Assembly (NCBI GenBank): GCA_964530725.1
Contig: CAZGYV010000001.1
Coordinates: forward strand, 15,829 to 79,828
Direction of reading: 5' to 3'
Length of the DNA stretch: 64,000 nucleotides
Origin: an uncultured Candidatus Saccharibacteria bacterium
GTDB lineage: Bacteria > Patescibacteriota > Saccharimonadia > CAILAD01 > CAZGYV01
Below, in pieces: positions 3,117 through 48,137 of this stretch (the first letter of the stretch is position 1; each line of letters begins with the position of its first letter). The notes beneath the pieces are model-generated. The model saw only the letters and a list, made by a program, of their open reading frames with translations. It was not told the origin of the DNA and searched no databases. The position numbers and the translations under genes were made by a program.

Positions 3117-3249
3117 AGTTGCCCCTTTCAGAGCGGATCTGGTTGTTAAGATGGTCTTATCGACCCCACAGCCTGCAAATTACTTTGTAAACTCTGAGGT
3201 CGACCGGGGTGCTCTATGCGCACCCCGGAGCGATCCTTACTGAATGGAG

Positions 3250-3741
3250 CTAGTTCGCGGTCGTCGGCCAGGGGTCTCCCTCGGTAAGGTGTCTGATGAG
3301 CTTGTCATGCCAGTCGTCACGAACCACGTTGATGAACGTGGTGCCGCCTCCGACGCTCTCGTTGAGGGACTCGTTGCTGGTGCAGATCACCATAATGCAA
3401 TCAAGCCAACTGGCTCCGTAGCGAGCACCGCAGACGTGCTTGGTCAGGACGGAAAATGTATTGCCGTCAAGCTGAACCGACAGGAATGCACCGGTGGCCA
3501 AGTCGGCAGTCGTGGGGTAAATGCCGGCGTGGGGCTGGGAGCGCTCCAAGACGGAGATATCCTCGTCGCTAACATCGAGAGCCTGTTGGTAGGCCTGCGC
3601 GTGGCTGACGAATCGCTGCCACATGCTGGCCTCACGGCTGGTGGTTTCGTCGATGATCGAGCGTACCGCATTTCGAAAGCCCATAGGGCTCCTTTCACTT
3701 GAAGGATCGTCATTCACCGCGGATGCGGCAAATGTGTTCAT
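3250..3741 (-). CDS. Hypothetical protein (163 aa; alternative start at Met20, coordinate 3684)
   Basis: Minus-strand ORF with balanced composition; antisense ORF 3244..3702 is Gly/Val/Ala-rich shadow. No recognisable family. Confidence 0.4.
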   Translation of the reverse strand: MNTFAASAVNDDPSSERSPMGFRNAVRSIIDETTSREASMWQRFVSHAQAYQQALDVSDEDISVLERSQPHAGIYPTTADLATGAFLSVQLDGNTFSVLTKHVCGARYGASWLDCIMVICTSNESLNESVGGGTTFINVVRDDWHDKLIRHLTEGDPWPTTAN

Positions 3742-3869
3742 TGCGCGAACCTGTAGATATTAGCACAACTATTGCTTTTTATCAAGGTTTGTGGTGTGAT
3801 TTCGTTTATTCTTCTTAGGACAATTGGCCGGGAGAAAATGCTCGAGGGCGCTGCTTGTTCCGGCATGAA

Positions 3870-3900
3870 AAAACCCGAGACTTAGACTCGGGTTTTTTCA
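3870..3900. terminator. Orphan bidirectional intrinsic terminator-like hairpin (AAAAAACCCGAG-ACTTAGAC-TCGGGTTTTTT)
   Basis: Perfect 7-bp GC stem flanked by A6 and T6 runs; sits at left edge of the AT-rich islet with no adjacent convergent gene. Confidence 0.5.
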
Positions 3901-4044
3901 TGGTGAACGTGGTTGAATCGAATTGGAACGATATCCTTATGGAGTTCAGGCGACTCCATCACCTTATCAGGGGATTATCTCTGGCATAATCCATTCGCTA
4001 CGGTGATAGAACTAGTTTATGCTTGACACATAATGCTAATGCTT

Positions 4045-4071
4045 TTGTTATAGGCTTCTGAACCCTATAAT
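4045..4071 (+). promoter_or_regulatory. Putative promoter of KAP NTPase gene (TTGTTA-15-TATAAT; additional TTGACA at 4023-4028), near-leaderless
   Basis: TATAAT at 4066-4071 only 10 nt before ATG 4082; upstream TTGTTA/TTGACA -35-like hexamers. Confidence 0.3.
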
Positions 4072-4081
4072 ACAGTGTAAT

Positions 4082-7000
4082 ATGTCTACATTACATAAAA
4101 GAGTATGGGGTAAAATCAAAAGCTACTTTGTAAGGGATGAAGCCGAGAAGCAAACACACCCCCTAAAGTCTCTCAGGCCAGCAAAGAATATTGATGGTCA
4201 CTCCGCTTATGTTGACGACATCGCTGAAGCGGTTGCAAATGATGACATTCTGAATATAGCCCTTACTGGCAGCTACGGTTCTGGTAAAAGTAGTATCCTC
4301 AGAGTCTTCAAGGATTCAACAAAGAAGAATAAAGTAGTCCAAATATCGTTCTCAAGCCTAGGGGCGAATATACAGGGTTATATCAATAAGTCTGAAGATG
4401 ATGAACACGAGAAGCTAAACAATCTCACAAACCTAATCCAAAAAGAGATAGTCAAACAGATACTCTTCAAGGAAAAGTACAAGAATATACCGTATTCAAA
4501 GTACAAGAGAGTCTCCAGCCCACGCTTGCCCCTAGTTTTTCTTAACGCATCATTAATATCTATAGTTCTGTTGGCCGTATCATTCGCAAACGGGTGGCTG
4601 GCTCAATTGTTTAAAGTTGCAGCCATTTCGGATTTCTGGTGGCAGGTAGCACTCTGTGCAGACCTATTCATTATCAGTACCTCGCTTATTGCTATCTTCG
4701 TGCTTACGCTATCTGGCAAAATACGGATAGATAAAATTGGTGCATCTTCAATATCATTATCACTCTCGGGAAGTGCAAGTTATTTTGACGAATACTTAGA
4801 TGAGATTATCTACTTCTTTGAAGCTGGACGATACAACGTGGTTATCTTTGAAGATATTGATAGGTTTGAGAGCCTTTATATTTTCGAGACCCTTCGACAG
4901 CTCAACACCATTCTGAATAACTCAGAGCAGATAAAACAACCCGTGACTTTCATCTACGCAATTAAAGACAGTATTTTCGCCAAAGAAGTTGTTGATGCTA
5001 AGAACGACCACAAAGAGCGAAGTGCAAACAGAACCAAGTTCTTTGACCTCATCATTCCTGTAGTTCCTTTCATTACTAATGTGAACTCACAAGACCACAT
5101 ACTTCAGGTTTTTGATAGCGAGTACCGAGACATCATCAGAGAGCCAGCCTCAGTAGTGGCAAAGCATATTACTGATATGCGTCTTGTGGTTAACATCTAT
5201 AACGAGTTTCTAATATTCAAGGATAAAGTTGTACTCCCCGACTCAGGCTTATCTCTGGATAAGTTATTTGCAGTTGTTGCTTACAAAAACTGGAATCTGG
5301 ATGAGTTTGAAAAAGTTAAAGATGGTGATAGTTCAATCGATAAGGTTATTGCTGCACACAGCAAATATGTTGACGATAGAATACGTACCATTAACTCTGA
5401 GATACGAAGCAAAGAAAGTGCCCTAAAGACTATCAATGCCATTGCTGAACGGTCACAGAGCTTAGGTAAGGTTCTTACCGACTATATAGCCGATGTATTG
5501 CGACAGGTGCAAGGTTCTGCTCAGTCCTATAGCCTTAACAGCACTTCTTATGACTTAGAAGATTTCACAACCGAAGATTTTTGGAGCGATATCATCAAAG
5601 GGGGTGAGACCAGTACTCTTATTGTCACCTATCGAGCATCAACTGGCTACACACAAAACCTTACACTGACGGCAGCCGACATCAGTAGTATTTGTAGCGA
5701 CAGCCTTGATAAAACCCAGTGGGATACAAAAGCAGCAGAAGCTATTGAAGACGAAATAGGAGTACTACGAGCCGAAGCTAATAAACTCCCATACCAAAGT
5801 ATCAAGGAACTCATTCAGGAATCACCAGAGTTTCTCGCTAAATTAAAGGAGCTCGATGGCGGTAAGGTTGTTGCTGACGAGGTAGGATGGCAACTCATTA
5901 AGGCTGGCTATATCGATACCGAATTCGTACACTACACCTCGCTATACTACAGCACCAGCATGAGCCTCAAAGCTCGTAGCTTCTTGCTAAATAATGTCCG
6001 ACTGAACAAACAGTCTTTGCATCACAAGTTTGAAAACGATGATGACATACAAGCACTTCTAGAAAAAATGGGCAGTACCTATCTTAATGATAAGAGCATG
6101 TACAACATCTCAATAGTTGATTACTTGCTCAGGAAGGATGACTCAAGAGTAGATAAGATAATAGCTAACTTGGCAGGCGGTGACGCTGACGACCTTCAAT
6201 TTATCAATGCATATGTGAAGGAGGGTTCTGAAGTAACCAAGTTTATCCAACAGCTTGCTGCACGATGGGATGGAATCTTTACGTATATTACAGGTGATAA
6301 CGAAATGGATGATAAAAAGAAGGGTCGTTTCATTAGCCTTGCATTAACTGCTGGTTCTGAGAGTATCAAGTATAAAACCAATCCATCCGTTAAAGGTTTT
6401 ATTGAGGCCAATAAAACAAACGTCCAGATACTTACAAACGATAACCAAGATAGCTCAGCCGTTGATGATGCTTGCCGATTGCTCATGCAGTTTGGAATTG
6501 AATTCGATACTCTTGATAATCTGAACGAGCAAGCAAAGGAAGCCGTAAAAGATTATGGTCTCTATACGGTCAATGAGCAGAACATGACATCTATCCTTGG
6601 AAGTCCAAGAGTGCCTTTGGATACAATCAAACGCACAAATGAATATGTCTACTCTCACTTGCTAGGGCATCTTGGTGAGTACGCAGACCTATTCCAGAAT
6701 CGAGCAGGCTCAGAATATGCACTTGCAGGCGAAGACGGATTTGAAGCAGTAATTGATGAGGTGTCAAAGATTTCGATGGATGACTTAGGATTAATTCTGG
6801 CTAATGCTGACCTGTCGAACTGTATCGTTCAAGATATTAATAAACTTGGTTCAGACACATGGCCTCTACTGGTTGAGAATGTCATTCTGTCCAACACTCT
6901 AAGTAACGTTCTGACATACTTTGAGCTGTCACATGCCGATGACAAGACAGTAATCAATGACCTGCTGGCTACATACCTTACTGAGGCTGAAACGGTTGTA

Positions 7001-7753
7001 CTTGATAAAGACTTTGCGGAGTATACTGCAGAAAATGTAAAGACCTTTGTTTTGGCCGTAGTAAATAGTTCAAAAATCGATGTGGAGACCACGGTTAATA
7101 TTGTCCATGATTGCTACACCGAAGACTACATTGACATATCAGATATTAAACCCCAAAACGGTAGCCTCTACGGTGCGTTGCTATCAAAGGACTGCATCGA
7201 AGATACGCAGGCGAACTTCGAGGCAATTAGAAACCTTTCTTGGGAAACGAAAAGCTCATACATAGCAAACTCCAAGAAGTTCTTAGAGTACATTGCAGCC
7301 CTCGCTCTCACTACGGACGAGCTAAACTCTATTGCTGAAGACGGCTCAATTCCTGATGCCGTTAACGAGTATATAGTCGATAACATCGTTGCTTATTCTG
7401 CTGAGTTATCTATCATGTCAGCTGCACACTTTGCCGAGTTTGCATTACGTAAGTCGAAGGTACTCAGTGCTGATTCACTTAAGGTTATTCTTGACGGAGC
7501 GGATAAGGAAACTAGCATTAAGCTCATAGGTCTAGCTTTAAATAATCTCGACTTTTCAAATATGCTCACACTCATGCCAGTTGTTGGTGGAGAGTATAAG
7601 AAGCTATCCGAGAAAAACAAACGACCATTATTTGAGAATACCGACTACAACTTAAACCTCATTGCCCGACTTAAAGAACTGGGCTTGGTGAGTAGTTATG
7701 AATTAAAAGATAATGAAACAAAAATAAAAGTAGTTATGAAGTCACGATGGTAG
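4082..7753 (+). CDS. KAP-family / YobI-like P-loop NTPase with transmembrane helices inserted in the NTPase domain (1223 aa)
   Basis: Walker A LTGSYGSGKSSIL at residues ~60-72. Two to four hydrophobic helices (LVFLNASLISIVLLAVSF..., LCADLFIISTSLIAIFVLTL) lie between Walker A and Walker B (VVIFEDIDRF). This matches the KAP NTPase architecture. The long C-terminal alpha-rich region and overall size are similar to B. subtilis YobI (~1200 aa). Confidence 0.65.
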   Translation: MSTLHKRVWGKIKSYFVRDEAEKQTHPLKSLRPAKNIDGHSAYVDDIAEAVANDDILNIALTGSYGSGKSSILRVFKDSTKKNKVVQISFSSLGANIQGYINKSEDDEHEKLNNLTNLIQKEIVKQILFKEKYKNIPYSKYKRVSSPRLPLVFLNASLISIVLLAVSFANGWLAQLFKVAAISDFWWQVALCADLFIISTSLIAIFVLTLSGKIRIDKIGASSISLSLSGSASYFDEYLDEIIYFFEAGRYNVVIFEDIDRFESLYIFETLRQLNTILNNSEQIKQPVTFIYAIKDSIFAKEVVDAKNDHKERSANRTKFFDLIIPVVPFITNVNSQDHILQVFDSEYRDIIREPASVVAKHITDMRLVVNIYNEFLIFKDKVVLPDSGLSLDKLFAVVAYKNWNLDEFEKVKDGDSSIDKVIAAHSKYVDDRIRTINSEIRSKESALKTINAIAERSQSLGKVLTDYIADVLRQVQGSAQSYSLNSTSYDLEDFTTEDFWSDIIKGGETSTLIVTYRASTGYTQNLTLTAADISSICSDSLDKTQWDTKAAEAIEDEIGVLRAEANKLPYQSIKELIQESPEFLAKLKELDGGKVVADEVGWQLIKAGYIDTEFVHYTSLYYSTSMSLKARSFLLNNVRLNKQSLHHKFENDDDIQALLEKMGSTYLNDKSMYNISIVDYLLRKDDSRVDKIIANLAGGDADDLQFINAYVKEGSEVTKFIQQLAARWDGIFTYITGDNEMDDKKKGRFISLALTAGSESIKYKTNPSVKGFIEANKTNVQILTNDNQDSSAVDDACRLLMQFGIEFDTLDNLNEQAKEAVKDYGLYTVNEQNMTSILGSPRVPLDTIKRTNEYVYSHLLGHLGEYADLFQNRAGSEYALAGEDGFEAVIDEVSKISMDDLGLILANADLSNCIVQDINKLGSDTWPLLVENVILSNTLSNVLTYFELSHADDKTVINDLLATYLTEAETVVLDKDFAEYTAENVKTFVLAVVNSSKIDVETTVNIVHDCYTEDYIDISDIKPQNGSLYGALLSKDCIEDTQANFEAIRNLSWETKSSYIANSKKFLEYIAALALTTDELNSIAEDGSIPDAVNEYIVDNIVAYSAELSIMSAAHFAEFALRKSKVLSADSLKVILDGADKETSIKLIGLALNNLDFSNMLTLMPVVGGEYKKLSEKNKRPLFENTDYNLNLIARLKELGLVSSYELKDNETKIKVVMKSRW

Positions 7754-7919
7754 ACGTGGGGTGCGGTAGGGCTCGCCAAGCGTAGCGGCACAAGTCCTGT
7801 TTAGCGGGATACTACTTTATAGCATAAGCATGCCATAAGCAAAAAACGAAAACTCCATACCTCTGCATCTGTAAATTGGCGGATTTCTAGTAGTTTTTGG
7901 CTATGACTAACTATACGTA

Positions 7920-8414
7920 TTAGTAGCTTTTAGGAATAGCCTTACAAACTTCATCAAGAAGCTCATCAGGACTCATGTTGAGGTTTTGGTTTAAGTCTTT
8001 AAACTCCATAGTTATCATCACATAGACCATAGTCTGGAAGTTATTTGGGTGTTCTAGCTTCTCTGCAACTTGGGTTGTATATGCAGTTAGTCGTAATAGT
8101 TCGTCTGGCTTTTTGAATCCAGTTCTTGCAGAGACTGTCATAAGTCGCAACTCTTCCTTACTGGCATTAGGATTCTGGCGTTTATGCATGTCATACATCT
8201 TCTTTTGCGTCTTGGCTATTGAAACAGGACTACCTGCTTTTTTGAATAGTCCACCAATCCACTTGAAGATAGCAACAACCCAAAAGAACAGACCAAACCA
8301 TACAAGGATACCCGCAAACATTGAGGGTAGTAAATGGAATATACTAGGCAGCATTAAAGCTAACCCGATAAGGAACAGTTGATAAGGCTTAATACTTTTT
8401 CTTTGCTTCGACAT
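7920..8414 (-). CDS. Small 2-TM membrane protein with cytoplasmic C-terminal domain (164 aa from Met at 8414)
   Basis: AAGGAG 6 nt upstream of ATG 8414 (MSKQRK...); track start at 8510 lacks RBS. Convergent with KAP NTPase gene. Confidence 0.45.
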   Translation of the reverse strand: MSKQRKSIKPYQLFLIGLALMLPSIFHLLPSMFAGILVWFGLFFWVVAIFKWIGGLFKKAGSPVSIAKTQKKMYDMHKRQNPNASKEELRLMTVSARTGFKKPDELLRLTAYTTQVAEKLEHPNNFQTMVYVMITMEFKDLNQNLNMSPDELLDEVCKAIPKSY

Positions 8415-8455
8415 GTTTTTCTCCTTAAAAATAAAAACGACACCACGCTTGGTGT

Positions 8456-8558
8456 CTAAACCAGTAACAGAGTTTTTAAGCCCGATTACTTCGCATGGTG
8501 CCGTTTTCAAGGCTTAAAACCACGCAAAATTACTTGCGGTACTCTATAACTGGTTTAG
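8456..8558. ncRNA. Structured intergenic element: nested inverted repeats (outer 17-bp IR 8456-8472/8542-8558, 15/17 match; inner perfect 9-bp IR 8474-8482/8511-8519)
   Basis: CTAAACCAGTAACAGAG ... CTCTATAACTGGTTTAG and TTTTAAGCC...GGCTTAAAA read directly from sequence; lies between membrane-protein gene and recombinase promoter. Confidence 0.35.
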
Positions 8559-8856
8559 ACTATTTCATTATATAACAAAAACACCCCCATGTTGCTCAAA
8601 TCACCCCTGAGCCCAAACGATATTTTGCGTTTAAAATCAAAAGTTGATGTTATGCCCATCTCGTAGATAAAAGTGCGTGTTTTGACGGTTTATTTACAGT
8701 ATGTTGGTCGATTATTTTGCTTCCAAAATTAAAAGATGAGCATAAGTCCACCTCACAAATATGAGCGAAAAAAATGAAGCAAGTTCAGCGGTATTTCCGA
8801 CCACTATGGAGTTTTTGGTTATCCACAGACACTTGTCAAAATAAACATAAAAGGTA

Positions 8857-8885
8857 TTGACTTTTTGGGCAAAGTTTGATATAAT
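8857..8885 (+). promoter_or_regulatory. Consensus sigma70-type promoter TTGACT-17 nt-TATAAT directed toward small ORF and serine recombinase
   Basis: TTGACT 8857-8862, 17-nt spacer, TATAAT 8880-8885; ~270 nt upstream of ORF 9155. Confidence 0.5.
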
Positions 8886-9154
8886 ACCAACAGTTAATGA
8901 CGTGGTACACATGTTAAATCTCTTAGCTAAATCATACACAGAACCGACACGGCGTGGTGTTTAGCTAGTTATTTGATAGTCCTATAGTCACTACTCTTGT
9001 TGGAAGCAATAAAGAGAGAGCATCAGAGTTTCGCCTTCGTGAAAATATGCCCATTCTCCTACGTTGTCCTACTAAATAATTAGTAAGATAACAGGCTGAT
9101 TTAGTACGCCCTCGGACGGGTGTTTTTTATATCTGCCAAAGAATAAGGGTTAAC

Positions 9155-9376
9155 ATGCCACGACAAAGAACATGGAGCGGTCAGATGCTCACAATATCAG
9201 ATAAACCTATCATTACCACAGGAGAAGCTCGCAAGATACTAGGCAAGGGTTACGAAGAGCTTTCAGATGAACACCTAATGGGAGTAATTGTTTCACTTTC
9301 TAAGATAGCAGACTATTTCCTGACTAGGATTAGTGTTCCAGAAAACTATAAGGTATGTGGTAAAATGGGGATATGA
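9155..9376 (+). CDS. Small hypothetical protein (73 aa) immediately upstream of, and overlapping, the recombinase (possible accessory/directionality factor - speculative)
   Basis: ATGA overlap with recombinase start (9373-9376); no recognisable motif. Confidence 0.35.
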   Translation: MPRQRTWSGQMLTISDKPIITTGEARKILGKGYEELSDEHLMGVIVSLSKIADYFLTRISVPENYKVCGKMGI

Positions 9377-10971
9377 ATACGATGGATAAAAAAGAGCCAA
9401 TCAAAGTTTATGGTTATAAGCGTGTGTCTACTGAGGAGCAAGTTGATGGGATGTCTTTACATACTCAAGAGCTTGCAATTCAAGCCTACGCAGAGCAGCA
9501 CAATCTTGAGGTGGTGCATATCTTTCATGACGATGGAATATCCGCCAAAACAGCCAAGCGCCCGCAACTTCAAGAGATGCTCGCAAAACTCACAGCCAAA
9601 GATAACGAGGTGCGTGGTGTAGTTGTTTACAATCTCAGTCGTATCTCTCGTGATTTAGAGTCATACAGTCGTGATATAGGCTATCATCTTTCGGCAAAAG
9701 GCGTTCGTCTGTACTCTACAGTTGAAAACATTGACGATACACCAGAGGGTCGTTTGATGCGTAATATTGCACTCTCTATCCACCAGTACGATAACGATAC
9801 AAAAAGTCGAACAGTTAAAGACAATATGAAACAAGTTGCTCTTGAGGGTTGGTGGCAAGGCAATATCCCCTACGGATATAGCCGTGTTAAAGTACCGATT
9901 GGCATTAAGGACAAAGACGGTAAAACTAAGGAGCGTCTCACTCTCGAACCTGATAGCAATAACGACTTGAGCGACAAGATGCGTATGATGCTAGAGCGGT
10001 TCAGTGAGGGTGATTTGAAACAGTCCGAGCTTACTGATTATGCTGAGAGTATCGGCCTATACAGCCCAAAGGGTGAACGTTTTGCACCTCAGTCAATGAA
10101 TAACATTCTAAGAAATATTACCTATGCGGGCTTTGTGTGTAATAAGATGACAGACTTTGAACCTGTAAAGGCTAAACACGTAGGTCTTATCTCGCTTGAG
10201 ACATATTTACGTAATCAGGCTGTTCTTGATGGTCGTAAGCCTGATGAGGCGATGCCTCGCTTTACTGCTAGCTACCCTCTCAAGCACTCTCTGTTATGTA
10301 TTAACTGTCATAAACCCTTAACAGGTAGTGCACCTACTGGAGGTTCTGGTAAGAGCTCACCTCGCTATCACTGCACAAGATGTACGGGTACTGGCTCAAA
10401 AGGTCTTGATAGAACGAATGAGCTATTTGAAGCATTCTTAAACGATGTTACGCCTACAGATAAGATGATTAAGCTCTTTGATGTGATTGTACGCCGTATC
10501 GCCAAAGACAAGCTCTCAAACGTGAATAAGGCTATCAGCGATGTTAGAGACGATATGACCAAGATAGACACTGATATGCAGAAAGCACTTCAGTCTATGC
10601 TCGATGGCGATATCAGTAAGCAAGAGAAAGAAGACTACCAGTCGTCATTACGTATTAAGCGACTCAACCTAGAGGACGAACTTAATAAGCTACGAGACAT
10701 ACAGAGCCTCAATGAGTCTACTATTACCTATGTTTGTAACTTTATGGACGCTCCTGCTCGTATGTGGCAAGATGCAGACGCAGAGACAAAAGTCATCTTC
10801 CAACAGATGGTTACAGAGAACGGTATTGTATTCGACCTCAAGAACGAAAAGTTTGGAACGGACGGTTTGAGTATGTTTTACAGATTGAAAGACAACAAAA
10901 AAGACCCATCAAAGGCTGATGAGTCCCTTATGGTGATCCCACGGGGAATCGAACCCCGGTTACCAGGATGA
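9373..10971 (+). CDS. Large serine recombinase (resolvase/invertase catalytic domain + recombinase domain + zinc ribbon + coiled coil)
   Basis: N-terminal YGYKRVSTEEQ (catalytic Ser), VVVYNLSRISRD, C-terminal Cys cluster CINCH...HCTRCTG, 532 aa. Last ~13 codons are antisense to tRNA-Glu 3' end. Confidence 0.85.
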   Translation: MNTMDKKEPIKVYGYKRVSTEEQVDGMSLHTQELAIQAYAEQHNLEVVHIFHDDGISAKTAKRPQLQEMLAKLTAKDNEVRGVVVYNLSRISRDLESYSRDIGYHLSAKGVRLYSTVENIDDTPEGRLMRNIALSIHQYDNDTKSRTVKDNMKQVALEGWWQGNIPYGYSRVKVPIGIKDKDGKTKERLTLEPDSNNDLSDKMRMMLERFSEGDLKQSELTDYAESIGLYSPKGERFAPQSMNNILRNITYAGFVCNKMTDFEPVKAKHVGLISLETYLRNQAVLDGRKPDEAMPRFTASYPLKHSLLCINCHKPLTGSAPTGGSGKSSPRYHCTRCTGTGSKGLDRTNELFEAFLNDVTPTDKMIKLFDVIVRRIAKDKLSNVNKAISDVRDDMTKIDTDMQKALQSMLDGDISKQEKEDYQSSLRIKRLNLEDELNKLRDIQSLNESTITYVCNFMDAPARMWQDADAETKVIFQQMVTENGIVFDLKNEKFGTDGLSMFYRLKDNKKDPSKADESLMVIPRGIEPRLPG

Positions 10972-11005
10972 GAACCTGGCGTCCTAACCGCTAGACGATG
11001 GGACC
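10931..11005 (-). tRNA. tRNA-Glu (anticodon CUC)
   Basis: GGTCCCATCGTCTAGCGGTTAGGACGCCAGGTTCTCATCCTGGTAACCGGGGTTCGATTCCCCGTGGGATCACCA: 7-bp acceptor, anticodon loop TTCTCAT, T-loop TTCGATT, encoded CCA. Confidence 0.85.
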
Positions 11006-11122
11006 ATTGTCATATTATATACATTATACCATATTTACACTACTTTTTCTAGTCCTAGGGTTCAGGCAGTTTAGGTAATAATATCTCATTGTACTTGTGC
11101 TAAAATAGTATTAAAGAAGTAT

Positions 11123-43399: not shown

Positions 43400-44620
43400 T
43401 TATTTTTTCCAGCTGCGCAGGGCGTCTTTGAGGGCTTTTTTACCTTTCAGGTAAGTGTAGCCAACGTAGCTTAGACCGCTCATGCCCAGTACTCCGGCAC
43501 CGGCACTCTCAATACCAGTTTGTGGTATTTCGCCGCCGCCAGCAATCACTGGTGCGCTTGGCGTTGGGGTGATTACTTCACCAGGTGTTACAGGTGTTGG
43601 GGTTGGTGTAGGTGTAATCGATGGCGTGACTGTTGGAGTTGGAGTCGGGGTAATAGTTGGGGTTGGCGTAGGAGTCACGCTTGGAGTGGTGGTAGGAGTT
43701 GGTGTAGGCGTAACTTTCGGCTTTTTAACCTTGACGATCGCCTTGTCACAACCCTTTTGGTTGTCATTGGCAGTGAAGCAAGCTTCGTTGTCAATGTAGG
43801 TGCCACCTGGTGTGTTACCATCAACGTTGACAGTAATAGTAACGTCTTTGATTTGATTTGGAGCCACATCAGGGTAGTTGAAGTTAATTACCCGAGTGGG
43901 GTCGCCATTGGCGAGCTTCACTTCGGCTGGCAGCGGGTCGGTCATCTTAATACCGGTTAGCGCGCCAGTACCAACGTTGGTCATATAGACAACGTACTTC
44001 AGCTTGTCGCCAGCTTCGACTTCCAAGGCAGTTTCCTTGGTGTCGGCAGCGTAAGCGGTGTTGGCATCTTTACTGAGGTTGATAACACGCTTATAAATCT
44101 GGCCAAAAGGCTTGTTCATCGGCTTGATGGGGTTACCGCAAGACTTGATGATCGCCCAGTGGAAAGTACCACCTTCCATGCTAACAAAAGCTGGCAAGGA
44201 ATTGGAGTTAAACGATACGGCTGGCGGACGCATCCACAGCGAACCGTCTTTGGTCGAGTTCTGCAAGAACTCACGGCCGGAGCTAAAAACTCCAGTACCT
44301 ACTTGAGCACCGTTCACCCAGACAGAGCCGTCTTTGCGAACTTCGCCCTCGACGGTGTTCGGACTCATAATGCCGGCTTCGGTGATACCGCGGCCTTCAT
44401 TGTAATAAATCTGCTTGAGGTTGGCCGATGAATTCGCACCATCGCCACCATTAATTTTACTGATTAATTCTTGCTTATCAGCCGCGCCACATTTCATCAC
44501 AGCATTGCTGTCACAGTCGCGGGCAGCGTCAACTTTAACTAGTGGCAAGACTATCGAAGCCACCAGTAGCAAAGCGCTAACAATACCAATCAATTTGGTA
44601 CTAATTTTGCCTTTCTTCAT
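43400..44620 (-). CDS. Sortase-substrate-like surface protein: signal peptide, globular domain, (Thr-Pro)n stalk, C-terminal IPQTG-TM-KKALKDALRSWKK sorting signal
   Basis: C-terminal IPQTG + hydrophobic helix + basic tail = LPXTG-type cell-wall sorting signal; TPTPTPT repeats. Confidence 0.7.
   Translation of the reverse strand: MKKGKISTKLIGIVSALLLVASIVLPLVKVDAARDCDSNAVMKCGAADKQELISKINGGDGANSSANLKQIYYNEGRGITEAGIMSPNTVEGEVRKDGSVWVNGAQVGTGVFSSGREFLQNSTKDGSLWMRPPAVSFNSNSLPAFVSMEGGTFHWAIIKSCGNPIKPMNKPFGQIYKRVINLSKDANTAYAADTKETALEVEAGDKLKYVVYMTNVGTGALTGIKMTDPLPAEVKLANGDPTRVINFNYPDVAPNQIKDVTITVNVDGNTPGGTYIDNEACFTANDNQKGCDKAIVKVKKPKVTPTPTPTTTPSVTPTPTPTITPTPTPTVTPSITPTPTPTPVTPGEVITPTPSAPVIAGGGEIPQTGIESAGAGVLGMSGLSYVGYTYLKGKKALKDALRSWKK
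43590..43715. repeat. Imperfect tandem DNA repeats (GGTGTTGGGGTTGGTGTAGG-like) encoding the (Thr-Pro)n stalk
   Basis: Visible periodic GGNGTNGG units; coding low-complexity, not CRISPR. Confidence 0.6.
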
Positions 44621-44791
44621 ATATTCTCCTACTCACCCTCGACTTTATTATTTAACGTAACTATTATTCTACAAGACAAAAGCATTTTTGTCAATACTTT
44701 TTTGTTATGTTTAAGGTTTGAGTTTTTACGTATCCGGTTCTATTAACTACTTTTTAATTAATAGAATTAGAGACGTGAAAATGGTTGGGGT

Positions 44792-44840
44792 GGGGACCCC
44801 CTTCTAGTCGTTTTTTGATAAACGCTAGAAGAGGGTCCCC
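44792..44840. terminator. GC-rich 18-bp-stem hairpin without U-tract at left boundary of high-GC block (actinobacterial-style terminator or boundary element)
   Basis: GGGGACCCCCTTCTAGTCG-TTTTTTGATAAA-CGCTAGAAGAGGGTCCCC. Confidence 0.4.
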
Positions 44841-44865
44841 TTGAACTTGTCAGAGGTGGTCTTGG

Positions 44866-45780
44866 CTAGTCGCCAAAACCGCCAATGTTTGTCGAGCCGT
44901 CGATGCCACCGGCCCCATCAGGGGCTTGGCCGGTTTGGCCGTGCCCCGCGTCGGGGTTGCCGGTGGCCTTGGTGCCACCGCCGGCGATTGAGCCACCACC
45001 ACCATTGCCACCACTAGGTGGCGGACTGGTTGGCGGAGGACTCGTCGGGGGCGGTGGGTTGTTCGGTGGAGGCGGTTGAGCGATTGGCGGCTGAGCTACC
45101 GTACCGCCGCCGCCAGCGTTGGCTGGAGGTACCGGTGAGGCTGGGCCAGCCTGAGTGGCTGGATTGCCTTGCGGTGCTGATGCAGGGTCTGCCTGCGGCT
45201 CGCCGGCCGGAGCCGAACCAGTTGCCTGACTCTGTGCCGCGTCCGCCGCCGGCTCGCCTACTACTGACGTAGCGGCTTCCGAGCTGACAGCCGATGGCGC
45301 ATCCTGGACAACAGCTGCCGGAGTCTCGGTGGGAGCCGGTGTGACCACCGTATCTCCTCTCAAGCTCCAGTTAACCACCGCACCAGCTACCAGCAGCGCG
45401 ACTGCCAGCAAACTGACACCCACGCGGCGACGGAACTGAGACCAGTCCCGCCGATCAGTCTCGGGCACCGTCTTGGGACGGGCCTTGACTGGTCGCACCA
45501 GCGTCAGGGGCTTGACCTTGGTCGCTGGCTCTGGGATTTCCGGTAGCAGCGAGACAACGTCTACGATCACGACATCCGAAAGGATGTGCGTGGTCGTCGC
45601 TGGCGGGCTAGCTGACTCGATGACAGCCAGCGCCATACTGGTCGTCGGCGAAGCTTCCTCTTCCTTGGTCGAACCGTAGAGCACCGGCAGCGCTGTGCTG
45701 TCGGGCTTGAGGAACGATTGCAGATCGAAGACCTGCGCTTCCGCTTCCTCGAACTTCGTGGCCGTCAGTGTCTCTGCCAC
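44866..45780 (-). CDS. High-GC-block protein A: N-terminal cytoplasmic region, single TM, Pro/Ala/Gly-rich tail ending GSTNIGGFGD
   Basis: GTG 45780 with AAGGAGG 5 nt upstream, overlapping TAG stop of upstream ORF (TAGTG). TM helix VGVSLLAVALLVAGAVV; PPPTSPPPTSPPPSGGNGGGG. Confidence 0.5.
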   Translation of the reverse strand: MAETLTATKFEEAEAQVFDLQSFLKPDSTALPVLYGSTKEEEASPTTSMALAVIESASPPATTTHILSDVVIVDVVSLLPEIPEPATKVKPLTLVRPVKARPKTVPETDRRDWSQFRRRVGVSLLAVALLVAGAVVNWSLRGDTVVTPAPTETPAAVVQDAPSAVSSEAATSVVGEPAADAAQSQATGSAPAGEPQADPASAPQGNPATQAGPASPVPPANAGGGGTVAQPPIAQPPPPNNPPPPTSPPPTSPPPSGGNGGGGSIAGGGTKATGNPDAGHGQTGQAPDGAGGIDGSTNIGGFGD

Positions 45781-46082
45781 TATCCCCTCCTTCTCGTTTG
45801 GCGGCAACCAGACTTCTCGGCCCGACGCATGCTGCGCGCGAGTTTGGGATCTCGCATCAACATTCGCCGGGTGTCGGCCATGGCTTCACTCTCCCAGTGC
45901 TCTTGGCGCAACACGTCAAAGTGCTGGGTGATCTTGGCCTGACGTTCCTTGGCGGCCTTGGCGCGCTTGCTCTTTCGACGAGCCTTTTTCAGCCAGCGAG
46001 CGGCGTGAACCGCTACGACATAGCTGAAGATTAGCCCGAGTAATACGGCAGCAATCCAGAATTGAGCCGAGTTTTCACTCAT
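45780..46082 (-). CDS. High-GC-block small membrane protein (101 aa) with Arg/Lys-rich C-terminal tail
   Basis: ATG 46082 one nt after TGA of upstream ORF (TGAGATG); TM FWIAAVLLGLIFSYVVAV; tail KKARRKSKRAKAAKERQAK. Confidence 0.45.
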   Translation of the reverse strand: MSENSAQFWIAAVLLGLIFSYVVAVHAARWLKKARRKSKRAKAAKERQAKITQHFDVLRQEHWESEAMADTRRMLMRDPKLARSMRRAEKSGCRQTRRRG

Positions 46083-46083
46083 C

Positions 46084-46593
46084 TCAACCCCCAAAGCTGC
46101 CGACGTTGGTCGATGTCCCCATCTGGCCATTGCCAGATGGGCCCTGGCGAGCGCCGCCGTAATTGGCGGTCTCGCCGTGTTGGGCGTCCGAGACGTGCTG
46201 CGAGCCCTTGCTCGAAGCGCCACCCGACGAACTACCACCAGGTCCTTGCTTGGGAGTGGACGACGATTTGCCACCTCCTCCACCTGGGGCCGGTGATTCA
46301 CCACTACCGTCTCCACCACTGCCGCCACCTGGTGGTGGCTCGGCTTCTGGAGGGGGTGCCGGCGGCAGTGTGGTCGGTGACACTGTTGTTGTAGGCGGCG
46401 TGGTCGTTGTTGTCGGAGCTACCGTTGTGGTGGTGGCTTCGGTCGATGACGGCGGTGCCGCGTCGCTTGCCGACATGGGGCGGACTGCCACCATCGCCAG
46501 CACCGTAATCCCAACGATCGCGGTCGTAACGATGAGAGCGATATTACGTACCCTCATCGGGTCAATGAAGCGCAAGGGTTGCAAGCGAGCCAT
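46084..46593 (-). CDS. High-GC-block protein B: short N-term, single TM, Thr/Pro-rich then Gly-rich tail ending GTSTNVGSFGG (paralogue of protein A C-terminus)
   Basis: TM IALIVTTAIVGITVLAMVAV; TTTTVAPTTTTTPPTTTVSPTT; C-terminal motif shared with 44866..45780. Confidence 0.5.
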   Translation of the reverse strand: MARLQPLRFIDPMRVRNIALIVTTAIVGITVLAMVAVRPMSASDAAPPSSTEATTTTVAPTTTTTPPTTTVSPTTLPPAPPPEAEPPPGGGSGGDGSGESPAPGGGGGKSSSTPKQGPGGSSSGGASSKGSQHVSDAQHGETANYGGARQGPSGNGQMGTSTNVGSFGG

Positions 46594-46779
46594 TGCTTGC
46601 CCTTTCTACTAGACAATATGTTGACAAGTTTCACTGCTTTTAAGGGATTTAAAAGCAGATTCAAGCCGTCAAGCAGTATTATACTCCTATCAAAGAATGA
46701 TTGGGTGACCCCTCCCATCTCAGGTAGTGAGACGAGAGGGGTCACAGTTGGACATGGACATGGGACAAGTTAGGTTTGC

Positions 46780-47400
46780 CTAGGCAACCTGGCTGCTGGG
46801 TGGAGCGAGCTGCTCCGTCGGCCGGTCGACCTCCTGGTCAGATGAGTCGGCTACCCAGCGGCGAAGACGGATAACCGTCTTCTGTAGCTGGGCGGCTAAC
46901 GCCAAACCGAGCAGCCCACCGGCCATCACCACCCCGAGGTAGATCCCCCAGGGAACGGCAAAGTCACGTTCAGTGGCAGCCTCGATGCTGTGCTCGAAGC
47001 TTCCAGCCAGCAGCCAGAACCCAAGCCAGGAGAGAACCGCACCGCCAATGATGAACAGTGCCATCAAGGCACCGCCAACACCTTCGCGGCCAATTTCGGC
47101 CTCACCGGTGATGCGGCTGAGTGCGATCTGCTCGATCCAGTTTCGCAACTGCACCAAGTAGTCGCTGACGCCGTGGATCTGTTGGTTGACCCCGGCAAGC
47201 CCCTTGGTGGTGTTCTCGTGCTGCCACATGAAGGCATCCCGGGTGGCCGGATCGGCTACCGCGTCGAACGGACTGGCTTGGGCCTGTGGCTGATTGGTGT
47301 CGTCGGCAGCACTTCCGCCACCTTCAGCACCATTCCAGCCGGTCCTCGCCTGCTCCTGGCCGTCGAGGACAGAGTCAACAAAGTCTGGTGTTATCTGCAT
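46780..47400 (-). CDS. High-GC-block membrane protein (206 aa; soluble N-terminal half, 3 predicted TM helices in C-terminal half)
   Basis: AAGGAGG 6 nt upstream of ATG 47400; helices ALMALFIIGGAVLSWLGFWLL, WGIYLGVVMAGGLLGLALAA. Confidence 0.5.
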   Translation of the reverse strand: MQITPDFVDSVLDGQEQARTGWNGAEGGGSAADDTNQPQAQASPFDAVADPATRDAFMWQHENTTKGLAGVNQQIHGVSDYLVQLRNWIEQIALSRITGEAEIGREGVGGALMALFIIGGAVLSWLGFWLLAGSFEHSIEAATERDFAVPWGIYLGVVMAGGLLGLALAAQLQKTVIRLRRWVADSSDQEVDRPTEQLAPPSSQVA

Positions 47401-47414
47401 GATTTCCTCCTTAA

Positions 47415-47981
47415 CTACATGCCCAGATCGGCAGCGACCCTTTTGATCGTCACTCGAGCATCCTCAGGCGACAAGCCGACGTTGGCCAAGCAGGCGTAAG
47501 CCAGCCTGACTGCTCGACTGTTGGCCTCATCCTCCGCACCATCGCGAAAACGTCGAATGGCCGCCTTGGCGGCAGACTCCTCGTTTTTCGCTATCTCGCG
47601 CTGCCGCTCGCTAATGTCGAGCAAGCGCTCAAGCTCAGCAATCCGAGCTTGCAGGAGACTCAACTCCTGCTTCATGTCACCGAGCAGACGACTGTCTTGC
47701 TCGAGAAGCTTGCGTTGCTTCTCAACGTGACCCTCCAGCTTTTTGGTGTAGTCGCGCCATTTGGTATCGATGGGCTGACGCTCCTCAAGGGGGTTGTCAG
47801 GCACAGGCTGCGGAGGCTCAGGCGGAGTCACCACCTCAATCTGGTCGGTGATCTCCTCTGACTCCACTGGCACCTCTACCGGCGGAACGTATTCAGCCGA
47901 CTGCTCTTCAGCAGCTCGGGCTTCGGCCTCAGCGGCTGCTTCAGCTGCGATGGCGTCCAACTCGTCCATGTCAAAATTCAT
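47415..47981 (-). CDS. High-GC-block acidic coiled-coil protein (189 aa from ATG 47981)
   Basis: GGGAG 5 nt upstream of ATG 47981 (MNFDMDELD...); Glu/Ala-rich N-term, heptad region KQRKLLEQDSRLLGDMKQELSLLQARIAELERLLD. Confidence 0.45.
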   Translation of the reverse strand: MNFDMDELDAIAAEAAAEAEARAAEEQSAEYVPPVEVPVESEEITDQIEVVTPPEPPQPVPDNPLEERQPIDTKWRDYTKKLEGHVEKQRKLLEQDSRLLGDMKQELSLLQARIAELERLLDISERQREIAKNEESAAKAAIRRFRDGAEDEANSRAVRLAYACLANVGLSPEDARVTIKRVAADLGM

Positions 47982-48137
47982 TTTCGCTCCCAATGTAAGG
48001 AACTTCTCTTGAAGCTTTTGCCTCAGAGTCAGCCAAGGATTTTGAAAAATCCTCAAGCTGATTACTAACGCAAAATGCTAGGGCAAGGGATCGGGCACTC
48101 GATATGAGCACCCGATCCCTCACTTACCCCTCCAACT

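What the first reader, a model, noticed from the sequence alone, without database searches (positions are those of the whole stretch)
9373..11005. Large serine recombinase whose 3' end is antisense to tRNA-Glu(CUC); possible decayed attL at 3901-3930
The recombinase stop (10971) lies 41 nt inside the tRNA gene (10931-11005, minus strand), so the element's junction reconstitutes the tRNA 3' end. This is the hallmark of tRNA-targeting integrative elements. At the far (left) end of the AT-rich tract there is a degenerate copy of the tRNA 3'-end sequence in the same orientation: TGGTGA-9nt-GAATCGAA at 3901-3924, versus TGGTGATCCCACGGGGAATCGAA at 10931-10953. It sits directly after an orphan bidirectional terminator (3870-3900). 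Together these delimit a ~7.1 kb element. Large serine recombinases usually target protein-coding genes, so tRNA targeting by this class is less commonly described.
Basis: seen in the sequence. Interest (0 to 1): 0.55.

Follow-up and report, generated by a model that had tools for sequence, protein, structure and literature searches.

The report
Serine-recombinase island at tRNA-Glu end
A 7-kb mobile island carrying an anti-phage gene sits exactly at the 3' end of a tRNA-Glu gene in a Saccharibacteria genome; its large serine recombinase belongs to a big, apparently undescribed clade whose own gene spans the attachment site, so integration swaps the enzyme's C-terminal tail and puts a built-in replacement terminator behind the tRNA.

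Summary
ORF 9373-10971 is a large serine recombinase (LSR), and its last 41 nt are antisense to tRNA-Glu(CUC) at 10931-11005. The left-end similarity at 3901-3922 is not chance.

The interpretation needs correcting.
- The element (3900-10936, about 7.03 kb) shares only a 7-bp core, ATGGTGA, at its two ends. That core is the complement of the tRNA's last six bases plus one.
- The tRNA is host DNA. It is not reconstituted by the element.
- The left end is an intact attL, not a decayed tRNA copy. In frame with the core it encodes a 27-aa tail (NVVESNWNDILMEFRRLHHLIRGLSLA). The same tail sits at the left end of two related elements in other hosts, and analogous W-N tails occur in three distant ones.
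- So attP lies inside the LSR gene, and integration swaps the native tail for tRNA-antisense residues.
- About 81% of 141 diverse family representatives end in tRNA-antisense peptides.
- The LSR's last codons encode an antisense terminator just after the tRNA (15/28 loci versus 10/658 controls). It replaces the native terminator, which is now stranded at 3867-3899.
- The cargo is a Tmn/YobI-type defence NTPase.

No empty site or circular junction was found for this element, and the tail's function is inferred. I rate this a new variant of a known kind.

The parts
3867..3899 (.). Displaced native terminator of tRNA-Glu: an A-run, hairpin and T-run. This is host DNA, the B arm of attL.
   Evidence: RNAfold gives -19.9 kcal/mol on the minus strand and -27.3 on the plus strand. 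In the reconstructed attB it would sit 1 nt after the tRNA CCA end. An unoccupied tRNA-Glu in relative L005 has a terminator in the same place. The left junction of L009 also has a terminator hairpin.
3900..3906 (+). Core ATGGTGA at attL.
   Evidence: It is identical to 10930-10936, and the flanking bases differ on both sides.
3900..3989 (+). P' arm plus the reading frame for the native C-terminal tail of the LSR: MV + NVVESNWNDILMEFRRLHHLIRGLSLA + stop. It would be contiguous with the LSR ORF only in the excised (attP) form.
   Evidence: Translation is. The same ORF sits at the left end of L010 (position 4860) and L009 (position 3923), at 87-91% nt identity. Codon differences are mostly synonymous (8:4, 6:3, 5:3), and similarity collapses after the stop. 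Analogous in-frame W-N tails occur in L011, L014 and L082. A tail-like regex has only one other, stop-interrupted match in the six-frame translation of the window (36400).
4082..7753 (+). Cargo: a 1223-aa Tmn / YobI-like transmembrane P-loop NTPase, a candidate anti-phage defence gene.
   Evidence: Pfam YobI-ATPase 6.9e-101. PADLOC Tmn 1.2e-63. Tmn is described as a YobI-family defence NTPase in PMC13001434.
7920..8510 (-). Cargo ORF of 196 aa, predicted membrane protein, function unknown.
   Evidence: The ORF list and sequence show hydrophobic stretches. There is no Pfam, PADLOC or PHROG hit.
8857..8885 (+). Promoter-like site upstream of the recombination module.
   Evidence: TTGACT-17-TATAAT matches 11 of 12 positions and has an extended TG. 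This is a consensus match only.
9155..9376 (+). Conserved 73-aa ORF whose stop overlaps the LSR start. It is a candidate directionality factor or regulator.
   Evidence: It is conserved with the LSR module in L010, L009, L002 and L003, with 57-90% identity and 28 invariant columns. It has no Pfam or PHROG hit. The proposed function is inferred from position only.
9373..10971 (+). Large serine recombinase, integrated-state form (532 aa). Residues 1-521 are element-encoded. Residues 522-532 (IPRGIEPRLPG) are read from the antisense of the tRNA.
   Evidence: Supported (phrog_95 integrase, 3.9e-69). An AF2 model of homolog P0007 has the LSR fold (pLDDT 85). Its top Foldseek hits are full-length serine integrases: 9dxd, Bxb1 9iu2, PhiC31 9rah and LI 4kis.
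10889..10929 (-). Intrinsic-terminator-like hairpin (10929..10899) plus T-run (10898..10889). It is embedded antisense in the last codons of the LSR and starts 1 nt after the tRNA 3' end.
   Evidence: The terminator scan reports 14 pairs. RNAfold gives -14.8 kcal/mol with z = -3.1. Equivalent sites occur in 15/28 LSR-tRNA loci versus 10/658 control windows, Fisher p = 4e-17.
10930..10936 (+). Core ATGGTGA at attR. It is the complement of tRNA bases TCACCA plus 1 nt.
   Evidence: Among near-identical LSRs the tail peptides diverge right after 'MV'.
10931..11005 (-). tRNA-Glu(CUC), intact, with the CCA encoded. It is the host target (B' arm).
   Evidence: ARAGORN and Rfam at 61.7 bits. The sequence differs from the tRNA-Glu of L010 and L005 at host-specific positions.
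11023..11051 (-). Promoter-like site for tRNA-Glu, in host DNA.
   Evidence: TAGAAA-17-TATAAT matches 10 of 12 positions with TG. This is a consensus match only.

Best explanation
Window 3900-10936 is a roughly 7.03-kb integrative island in a Saccharibacteria (Patescibacteria/CPR) chromosome. A large serine recombinase inserted it at the extreme 3' (CCA) end of tRNA-Glu(CUC).

Shown by the evidence:
- The two ends share only ATGGTGA.
- The tRNA body is host DNA.
- The left end carries, in frame with the core, a conserved 27-aa continuation of the LSR ORF.
- The LSR's last roughly 15 element-encoded codons form a hairpin plus T-run on the tRNA's strand.
- The tRNA's own terminator is stranded at the left junction.
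- The LSR family at large ends in tRNA-antisense peptides.

Inferred from that evidence:
- attP lies inside the LSR gene. The excised circle would encode a 548-aa LSR (residues 1-521 plus NVVESNWNDILMEFRRLHHLIRGLSLA).
- Strand exchange occurs at a dinucleotide within TGGTGA.
- Integration replaces the native tail with 11 residues read from the tRNA antisense. All catalytic and DNA-binding domains stay intact, because the structured part ends at about residue 505.
- The embedded antisense terminator takes over termination of tRNA-Glu transcription and shields the LSR gene from convergent read-through.
- The conserved 73-aa ORF upstream is the likeliest directionality factor or regulator.
- The cargo, a Tmn-type NTPase, makes this a small mobile defence island.
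For: Anatomy of the window.

Left-end tail ORF:
- It is conserved at the left end of two independent elements that have different host flanks and different cargo: L010 (LSR 86% identical) and L009 (98% identical). Changes are mostly synonymous.
- Elements share only the tail segment and the LSR module. The window-L009 BLASTN matches are 3894-4014 and 8916-10943.
- In-frame W-N tails, preceded by the tRNA-end core, are also found upstream of distant LSRs. These are L011 (40% identity, tRNA-His), L014 (27%, tRNA-Glu) and L082 (30%, tRNA-Met).
- Contiguous LSR+tail proteins exist: P0007, P0011, P0077, P0113 and P0144. All have W at tail codon 9.

The tRNA is host DNA:
- Near-identical LSRs have host-specific tRNA tails.

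Family-wide pattern:
- 115/141 homologs and 114/141 representatives of 50%-identity clusters carry a T-arm-antisense signature in the last 45 aa. Internal control windows give 0-8/141.
- 28 fetched loci have a minus-strand tRNA at the LSR stop: Glu, His, Asp, Met, Ser, Arg, Asn, Lys.

Terminator:
- Terminator-like sites occur in 15/28 junctions versus 10/658 controls, p = 4e-17.
- The unoccupied tRNA-Glu in L005 has a native terminator right after CCA.

Structure:
- AF2 on P0007 gives an LSR fold, a disordered linker at 506-524 and a helical tail at 525-538.
Against: - No empty attB and no circular attP junction of this particular element was found. The species seems absent from the searchable collections.
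- The contigs with contiguous LSR+tail (L001-L003) are not demonstrably circular. They could be tandem arrays in which the tail belongs to a neighbouring element, as at the L009 right junction. L001 and L002 share the LSR up to the core but have unrelated tails.
- The conserved W-N codons equal a fixed DNA motif, TGGAAY, 24 nt from the TGG of the core. Part of the tail conservation may therefore be DNA-level half-site recognition rather than protein-level.
- AF2 confidence for the tail helix is low (pLDDT about 55).
- 13 of 28 loci lack a recognisable antisense terminator. Several of the 28 are close relatives, so the count is not fully independent.
- No clear dyad symmetry was found around the core.
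Confidence: 0.8

Rival explanations
1. The first reader's model, which follows the tyrosine-integrase paradigm. The element carries its own copy of the tRNA 3' segment (at least 41 nt) and rebuilds the gene on integration. On this view 3901-3930 is the displaced, now decayed, original tRNA 3' end.
For: The ORF stop lies 41 nt inside the tRNA. TGGTGA...GAATCGAA is shared by both ends and is not chance.
Against: - Uninterrupted identity between the ends is only 7 bp, and the spacer differs by 1 nt.
- The left copy cannot form a T-arm, as read directly from the sequence.
- The left segment is an open 29-codon frame. It is conserved with mostly synonymous changes in L010 and L009, next to unrelated host flanks. 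That fits element DNA, not a decaying host fragment.
- LSRs at least 90% identical have different tRNA-derived tails.
- Element-to-element similarity ends at 10943.
Confidence: 0.05
2. The anatomy is the same as in the best explanation, but the C-terminal tail is a passenger. The open frame and the W-N motif exist only because the P' half-site (TGGAAY at +24) and compact gene packing overlap the ORF end. The two protein isoforms behave identically.
For: - W-N corresponds to an invariant DNA hexamer at a fixed distance from the core in every P' arm.
- The integrated-state tails are arbitrary tRNA-antisense peptides of 11-40 aa, so the enzyme tolerates any tail.
- The AF2 tail helix has low confidence and follows a disordered linker.
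- L009-type junctions carry TGG->TAG, which ends the LSR ORF at the W codon (tail MVSPRILF*).
Against: - The frame stays open for 24-45 codons in at least 8 lineages. That is well beyond the roughly 25-30 bp an LSR half-site needs.
- Beyond the W-N there is a recurring amphipathic pattern, W-N-x-hydrophobic-x-x-E/x-hydrophobic-x-R/x-hydrophobic, despite unrelated DNA.
- Synonymous changes exceed non-synonymous ones across the whole tail.
Confidence: 0.4
3. The island is a fixed, no-longer-mobile remnant. On this view the LSR-tRNA adjacency is vertically inherited synteny in this lineage rather than the product of site-specific integration.
For: No empty site or excised form was found for this genome.
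Against: - The same LSR type (86-98% identity) with the same tail sits next to tRNA-Glu in genomes with different flanks and entirely different cargo.
- A relative with the same right-flank gene (DUF3048 protein, 69% identity) has tRNA-Glu with no island.
- The LSR ORF, the tail ORF and both cores are intact.
- GC content is 0.36-0.45 against a host value of about 0.48-0.57.
Confidence: 0.05

Closest known systems
Phage and ICE large serine integrases (PhiC31, Bxb1, A118/LI, TP901-1, SPbeta SprA)
   Same: The domain order is the same: catalytic resolvase domain, recombinase domain, and a zinc ribbon with a long coiled-coil insertion. The core identity is short. The integrase gene lies next to the attachment site.
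   Different: Identity to any phage integrase in GenBank phages is at most 26%. The target is the CCA end of a tRNA gene rather than a protein-coding gene. attP lies inside the recombinase ORF, so the C-terminus changes on integration. An antisense terminator is embedded in the last codons.
tRNA-targeting genomic islands with tyrosine integrases (P4-like; Islander/TIGER class)
   Same: The element integrates at the 3' side of a tRNA gene, the integrase gene abuts the tRNA, the cargo is variable, and tandem arrays can form at one tRNA.
   Different: The enzyme family is different. There is no long direct repeat duplicating the tRNA 3' part, only 7 bp. The tRNA is left whole rather than split and restored.
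Archaeal SSV-type 'suicidal' tyrosine integrases (SSV1, pTN3, pT26-2)
   Same: The att site lies inside the integrase's own gene, and the target is a tRNA gene, so integration rearranges the integrase ORF (PMC8371274).
   Different: Those are tyrosine recombinases, reported as exclusive to archaea. Their gene is split into two inactive parts. Here the enzyme is a bacterial serine recombinase, and only a 27-aa tail after the last folded domain is exchanged.
Integration-dependent immunity of mycobacteriophages (BPs, Brujita, cluster P)
   Same: attP sits in the 3' end of a phage gene, so integration changes that protein's C-terminus and thereby its behaviour (PMC3694055).
   Different: There the affected gene is the repressor, and the removed piece is a degradation tag. 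The integrase is usually a tyrosine recombinase. No degron or immunity function has been shown here.
TIGER-predicted S-Int islands in t(m)RNA genes (Mageeney et al. 2020)
   Same: It is a computational prediction that some serine integrases use tRNA genes: 14 of 297, or 4.9%.
   Different: That report is an unverified handful. In the text I read there is no described clade, no att anatomy, no gene-spanning attP and no terminator.

Membership tests
Large serine recombinase (serine integrase) | N-terminal resolvase-type catalytic domain with the nucleophilic Ser in a Y-x-R-V-S-T motif | tested here: met
   Pfam PF00239 scores 2.7e-27 over residues 12-159. The motif is YKRVSTEEQ, and R17, V18, S19 and Q23 are invariant in a 48-sequence alignment.
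Large serine recombinase (serine integrase) | Recombinase domain (PF07508) following the catalytic domain | tested here: met
   PF07508 scores 1.3e-6 (29 bits, cutoff 21.1) over residues 203-288.
Large serine recombinase (serine integrase) | Zinc-ribbon domain with an inserted antiparallel coiled coil | tested here: met
   C309, C312 and C334 are invariant. The AF2 model of homolog P0007 shows short strands at 304-341 followed by helices 360-407 and 413-455. Foldseek matches full-length PhiC31, Bxb1 and LI integrase structures at E 1e-18 to 1e-10. Pfam PF13408 itself is hit only in distant homologs.
Large serine recombinase (serine integrase) | Recombination between short attP and attB with a 2-bp crossover, unidirectional without an RDF | not testable with these tools
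   Only the 7-bp shared core and the reconstructed attP and attB are available. No activity data exist.
tRNA-integrating island of the tyrosine-integrase type | Tyrosine recombinase integrase | tested here: not met
   The only recombinase in the island is a serine recombinase.
tRNA-integrating island of the tyrosine-integrase type | Direct repeat that duplicates a substantial part of the tRNA 3' half at the distal end | tested here: not met
   The shared uninterrupted block is 7 bp. The rest of the left arm matches the tRNA only at GAATCGAA, with a 1-nt register shift.
SSV-type ('suicidal') integrase arrangement | Attachment site located within the integrase's own coding sequence | tested here: met
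   The core lies at LSR codons 520-522. The frame continues at the element's other end. Contiguous LSR+tail proteins exist.
SSV-type ('suicidal') integrase arrangement | Integration splits the integrase into non-functional fragments; enzyme is a tyrosine recombinase | tested here: not met
   The enzyme is a serine recombinase. All folded domains (up to about residue 505) remain in one ORF after integration.
Tmn / YobI-type defence NTPase (cargo gene 4082-7753) | YobI-like P-loop NTPase domain with membrane-spanning segments | tested here: met
   Pfam PF20693 scores 6.9e-101 and PADLOC Tmn scores 1.2e-63. Hydrophobic stretches at about residues 150-210 are visible in the translation. Anti-phage activity was not tested.

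The most novel reading that the evidence does not exclude
The tail swap is a built-in state switch. The free element makes an LSR with a C-terminal amphipathic helix that promotes integration or blocks excision. The integrated element makes a differently tailed enzyme with altered directionality or stability. The recombinase therefore 'knows' whether it is integrated without relying only on a separate directionality factor. This would be a bacterial, serine-recombinase counterpart of archaeal suicidal integrases and of integration-dependent immunity. It is combined with a dual-coded stretch that is both a protein linker and the tRNA's new terminator. It is used by a clade of more than 150 clusters at 50% identity that targets many different tRNA genes.
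Probability: 0.25. Interest if true: 0.8.

Novelty: new variant of a known kind. Interest (0 to 1): 0.64.

Why it matters
Serine integrases are the main tools for inserting large DNA into genomes. They are thought to avoid tRNA genes; the one large survey I read called such use unreported and in need of proof (PMC7192596).

This finding gives comparative evidence for a deep and large clade that targets the CCA end of many tRNAs. At least 150 clusters at 50% identity score E <= 1e-100 against the family profile.

The anatomy is specific and testable:
- a 7-bp core;
- attP inside the recombinase gene;
- tail exchange on integration;
- a terminator written antisense into the recombinase's own codons, which keeps the target tRNA properly terminated.

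It also identifies how small defence islands may move among Saccharibacteria/CPR, whose mobile elements are poorly known. And it offers a set of natural recombinases whose targets are among the most conserved sequences in biology, which bears on finding integrases for hosts that lack landing pads.

Tried and rejected
(1) Empty site for this genome.
- Exact-protein look-ups of the flanking genes found nothing for the DUF3048 protein or the 3244-3702 ORF. The cmk look-up found only a 2.8-kb contig that stops short of the junction.
- The genome-contig scan with the DUF3048 protein gave only relatives at 69% identity or less. One of them, L005, has an unoccupied tRNA-Glu, but its left flank is not syntenic.

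(2) Circular form. Contigs L001-L003 have no terminal overlap, and L002 and L003 are the same sequence.

(3) Metagenome and IMG/VR scans with the LSR alignment.
- The scans used a generic catalytic-site pattern, so most of the 160 loci are unrelated LSRs.
- They were still useful as a background, and they yielded distant family members.
- No close relative occurs in viral contigs or GenBank phages, so this is not a recognisable prophage.

(4) Dyad symmetry around the core in the reconstructed attP and attB: none convincing.

(5) An apparent 5-bp outward shift of a T(C/G)GAAC motif in P' relative to B'. This would match the textbook difference between attP and attB half-sites. I rely on memory of the LI integrase work for that comparison and did not test it, so it is only a lead.

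(6) Function of the 73-aa ORF and the 196-aa ORF: no Pfam, PHROG or PADLOC hit.

(7) AF2 of a long-tail homolog to see whether the tail docks. The tail is predicted helical but at low confidence, so this is uninformative about contacts.

(8) Literature searches for prior description of CPR/Saccharibacteria LSR-tRNA elements, or of attP inside a serine integrase gene, found none. The library does not hold most subscription-journal papers.
Full report
OBSERVATION

ORF 9373-10971 (+, 532 aa) is present. It is a large serine recombinase (LSR).
- Pfam gives Resolvase at 2.7e-27 and Recombinase at 1.3e-6. PHROG integrase phrog_95 scores 3.9e-69.
- An AlphaFold model of a 548-aa homolog has the full LSR architecture. 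Its best Foldseek matches are full-length serine integrase structures: 9dxd, Bxb1 9iu2, PhiC31 9rah and LI 4kis.

ARAGORN and Rfam place an intact tRNA-Glu(CUC) at 10931-11005 on the minus strand. The ORF stop is 41 nt inside it.

A low-GC tract (0.36-0.45) runs from about 3900 to about 11100, between flanks of 0.48-0.57.

- TGGTGA-N8-GAATCGAA lies at 3901-3922 and TGGTGA-N9-GAATCGAA at 10931-10953.
- These are the only two matches in the window, with none in 100 shuffles.
- The spacer at the left site is 8 nt, not 9.
- The hairpin with A and T runs at 3867-3899 is strong on both strands.

WHAT THE TWO ENDS REALLY ARE

Uninterrupted identity between the ends is only ATGGTGA (3900-3906 and 10930-10936). 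This is the complement of the last six tRNA bases (TCACCA) plus one base.

Translating from 3900 in the phase that ATGGTGA has in the LSR ORF gives MVNVVESNWNDILMEFRRLHHLIRGLSLA and then a stop.

The same short frame, preceded by the same core, lies at the left end of two related elements.
- L010 position 4860: its LSR is 86% identical and also reads into a tRNA-Glu(CUC), but both host flanks are different.
- L009 position 3923: its LSR is 98% identical.

The 90-nt frame is 87-91% identical among the three elements. Codon differences are mostly synonymous (8:4, 6:3, 5:3), and similarity collapses right after the stop.

BLASTN shows that the window and L009 elements share only this left segment (window 3894-4014) and the recombination module (8916-10943). 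The cargo is unrelated.

So the left end is element DNA and an intact attL. It is not a decayed host tRNA fragment.

The tRNA body, by contrast, is host DNA. Within one 90%-identity LSR cluster the residues before 'MV' are nearly constant, while the residues after it follow different tRNA-Glu sequences: IPRGIEPRLPG, ISPGIEPGLPG, TPRRVELLLPG and others.

From this I reconstruct the two sites:
- attP = ...GCTGATGAGTCCCTT-ATGGTGA-ACGTGGTTGAATCGAATTGGAAC...
- attB = ...GACTCGGGTTTTTTC-ATGGTGA-TCCCACGGGGAATCGAACC...

In attB the terminator hairpin at 3867-3899 would start one base after the tRNA's CCA. An unoccupied tRNA-Glu(CUC) in the relative L005, which shares the downstream DUF3048 gene at 69% identity, has exactly that layout.

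attP INSIDE THE RECOMBINASE GENE IS A FAMILY TRAIT

Of 141 full-length homologs found by the first protein search and the cluster look-up, tails fall into these classes:
- 115 end in a peptide with the in-frame signature of an antisense T-arm (G-I/F/V-E-P and variants).
- 5 carry long non-tRNA tails, each with W-N at tail codons 9-10.
- 4 end in MVSPxxLF*.
- The rest are mostly outgroup LSRs.

A profile search of 1.84 billion cluster representatives returned 150 hits, all at E <= 3e-100. Of the 141 new full-length hits, 114 carry a strict T-arm-antisense signature in the last 45 residues. Internal control windows give 0-8 of 141.

In DNA loci fetched with a generic serine-recombinase pattern, 28 LSR ORFs stop in or at a minus-strand tRNA: Glu, His, Asp, Met, Ser, Arg, Asn, Lys.

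For three distant members with enough upstream sequence, I found the tRNA-end core followed in phase by a W-N tail at a plausible left boundary:
- L011: 40% identity, tRNA-His, core at 4115 right beside a tRNA-Gly.
- L014: 27% identity, tRNA-Glu, core at 94.
- L082: 30% identity, tRNA-Met, core at 4845.

In every P' arm TGGAAY (= W-N) starts 24 nt from the first T of TGG. After it the tails share an amphipathic pattern although their DNA is unrelated.

Part of this conservation may be DNA-level half-site recognition. However, the frames remain open for 24-45 codons.

The AF2 model places the last folded element at about residue 505. A disordered linker follows (506-524, which contains the core codons), then a low-confidence helix at 525-538. 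Integration therefore exchanges a tail and does not break the enzyme.

A TERMINATOR WRITTEN ANTISENSE INTO THE LSR

The terminator scan found a 14-pair hairpin plus T-run on the minus strand at 10929-10889. It starts one base after the tRNA 3' end. It folds at -14.8 kcal/mol with z = -3.1.

Its T-run is the complement of the Lys codons in the conserved 'KK' of the LSR linker.

Equivalent hairpin/T-run sites, with different sequences, follow the tRNA in 15 of 28 LSR-tRNA loci. They occur in only 10 of 658 antisense control windows inside the same genes (Fisher p = 4e-17). Some of the 28 loci are close relatives.

I infer that the element brings a replacement for the terminator it displaces. This would also stop tRNA transcription from running antisense through the recombinase gene.

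REST OF THE ISLAND

- 4082-7753 encodes a 1223-aa YobI-like P-loop NTPase that matches the PADLOC Tmn model. Tmn is described as a YobI-family transmembrane defence NTPase (PMC13001434).
- A 196-aa membrane ORF at 7920-8510 (minus strand) has no match.
- A conserved 73-aa ORF at 9155-9376 overlaps the LSR start and travels with the LSR module in L010, L009 and L002. It has no family hit. It is the obvious candidate for a directionality factor or regulator, by position only.
- A strong promoter-like site lies at 8857-8885.

WHAT IS NOT SHOWN

- I found no empty site or excision junction for this element.
- The contigs with contiguous LSR+tail are not demonstrably circular. They may be tandem arrays. 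In L009 the LSR runs into the P'-like arm of a neighbouring T4SS-bearing element. L001 and L002 share the LSR up to the core but have unrelated tails.
- The crossover dinucleotide, the activity of either isoform, the role of the tail and the function of the terminator are all inferences.

COMPARISON WITH KNOWN SYSTEMS

The enzyme meets the sequence and fold criteria of a large serine recombinase. It is at most 26% identical to any integrase in GenBank phages and has no close relative in IMG/VR.

The element behaves like a tRNA-targeting island, but it fails the defining features of the tyrosine-integrase type. It has no tyrosine recombinase and no long tRNA-derived direct repeat.

Mageeney et al. 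2020 found 14/297 S-Int islands at t(m)RNA genes. [quoted passage not shown]

An att site inside the integrase's own gene is known for archaeal SSV-type tyrosine integrases. A 2021 review states these are found exclusively in archaea.

A C-terminal change caused by integration is known for repressors in integration-dependent immunity.

My literature searches found no description of this LSR clade, of its gene-spanning attP, or of the embedded terminator. The library lacks most subscription-journal papers.

VERDICT

This is a new variant of a known kind. Interest is 0.64.

Noticed in passing
window 8886-9154: A roughly 270-nt non-coding leader lies between the promoter-like site and the 73-aa ORF. 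It is conserved in L009, L010 and L002, including a hairpin plus T-run at 9106-9130 (ACGCCCTCGGACGGGTGT TTTTT). It could be an attenuator controlling recombinase expression or a small RNA. There is no Rfam hit.
   Followed up: partly
L005 9666-9686 vs 9827-9847: In a relative whose tRNA-Glu(CUC) is unoccupied, an 18-nt copy of the tRNA 3' end (TGGTGATCCCACGGGGAG) lies 160 bp beyond the tRNA. It may be a scar of a different kind of integration event.
   Followed up: no
L009 9672-19698: The 98%-identical LSR is followed directly by a second element with T4SS genes (TrbL, TraG-like, PrgI, CHAP). The LSR reads into that element's P'-like arm, where TGG is TAG, giving the tail MVSPRILF*. The same tail class recurs in P0023, P0029 and P0112, so such tandem arrays seem to be recurrent.
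   Followed up: partly
L011 4030-4115 and 11595-11671: A distant family member is inserted between tRNA-His and tRNA-Gly of one tRNA cluster. With a terminator in its P arm, it would cut tRNA-Gly off from the upstream promoter unless the element supplies one.
   Followed up: no
L001 vs L002 (LSR genes and the sequence after the core): Two LSR genes are 73% identical in DNA right up to the core and unrelated after it. P' arms and tails therefore reassort between elements, by tandem insertion or by exchange at att sites.
   Followed up: partly
L092, L093, L098 (IMG/VR contigs): LSRs only 23-26% identical to the query, on contigs classed as viral, also stop inside a minus-strand tRNA-His at the contig or provirus edge. 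tRNA-end targeting may extend to prophage LSRs outside the family studied here.
   Followed up: no
window 3244-3741: Two overlapping ORFs lie on opposite strands (152 aa on +, 163 aa on -) in a stretch of GC 0.57-0.58. The minus-strand ORF, the only one of the two scanned, has no Pfam hit. Which one is real is unclear; the public gene call on a near-identical contig chose the + strand.
   Followed up: no
window 44000-48000: This is the highest-GC block of the window (0.576). It carries several minus-strand ORFs without Pfam hits and one with a DUF11 repeat. It may be another foreign or surface-protein region.
   Followed up: partly
P0035 (JGI protein, 897 aa): One database protein is an LSR of this family fused in the gene call to UDP-N-acetylmuramate dehydrogenase (MurB). 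The cause is presumably read-through across the junction or a mis-call.
   Followed up: no
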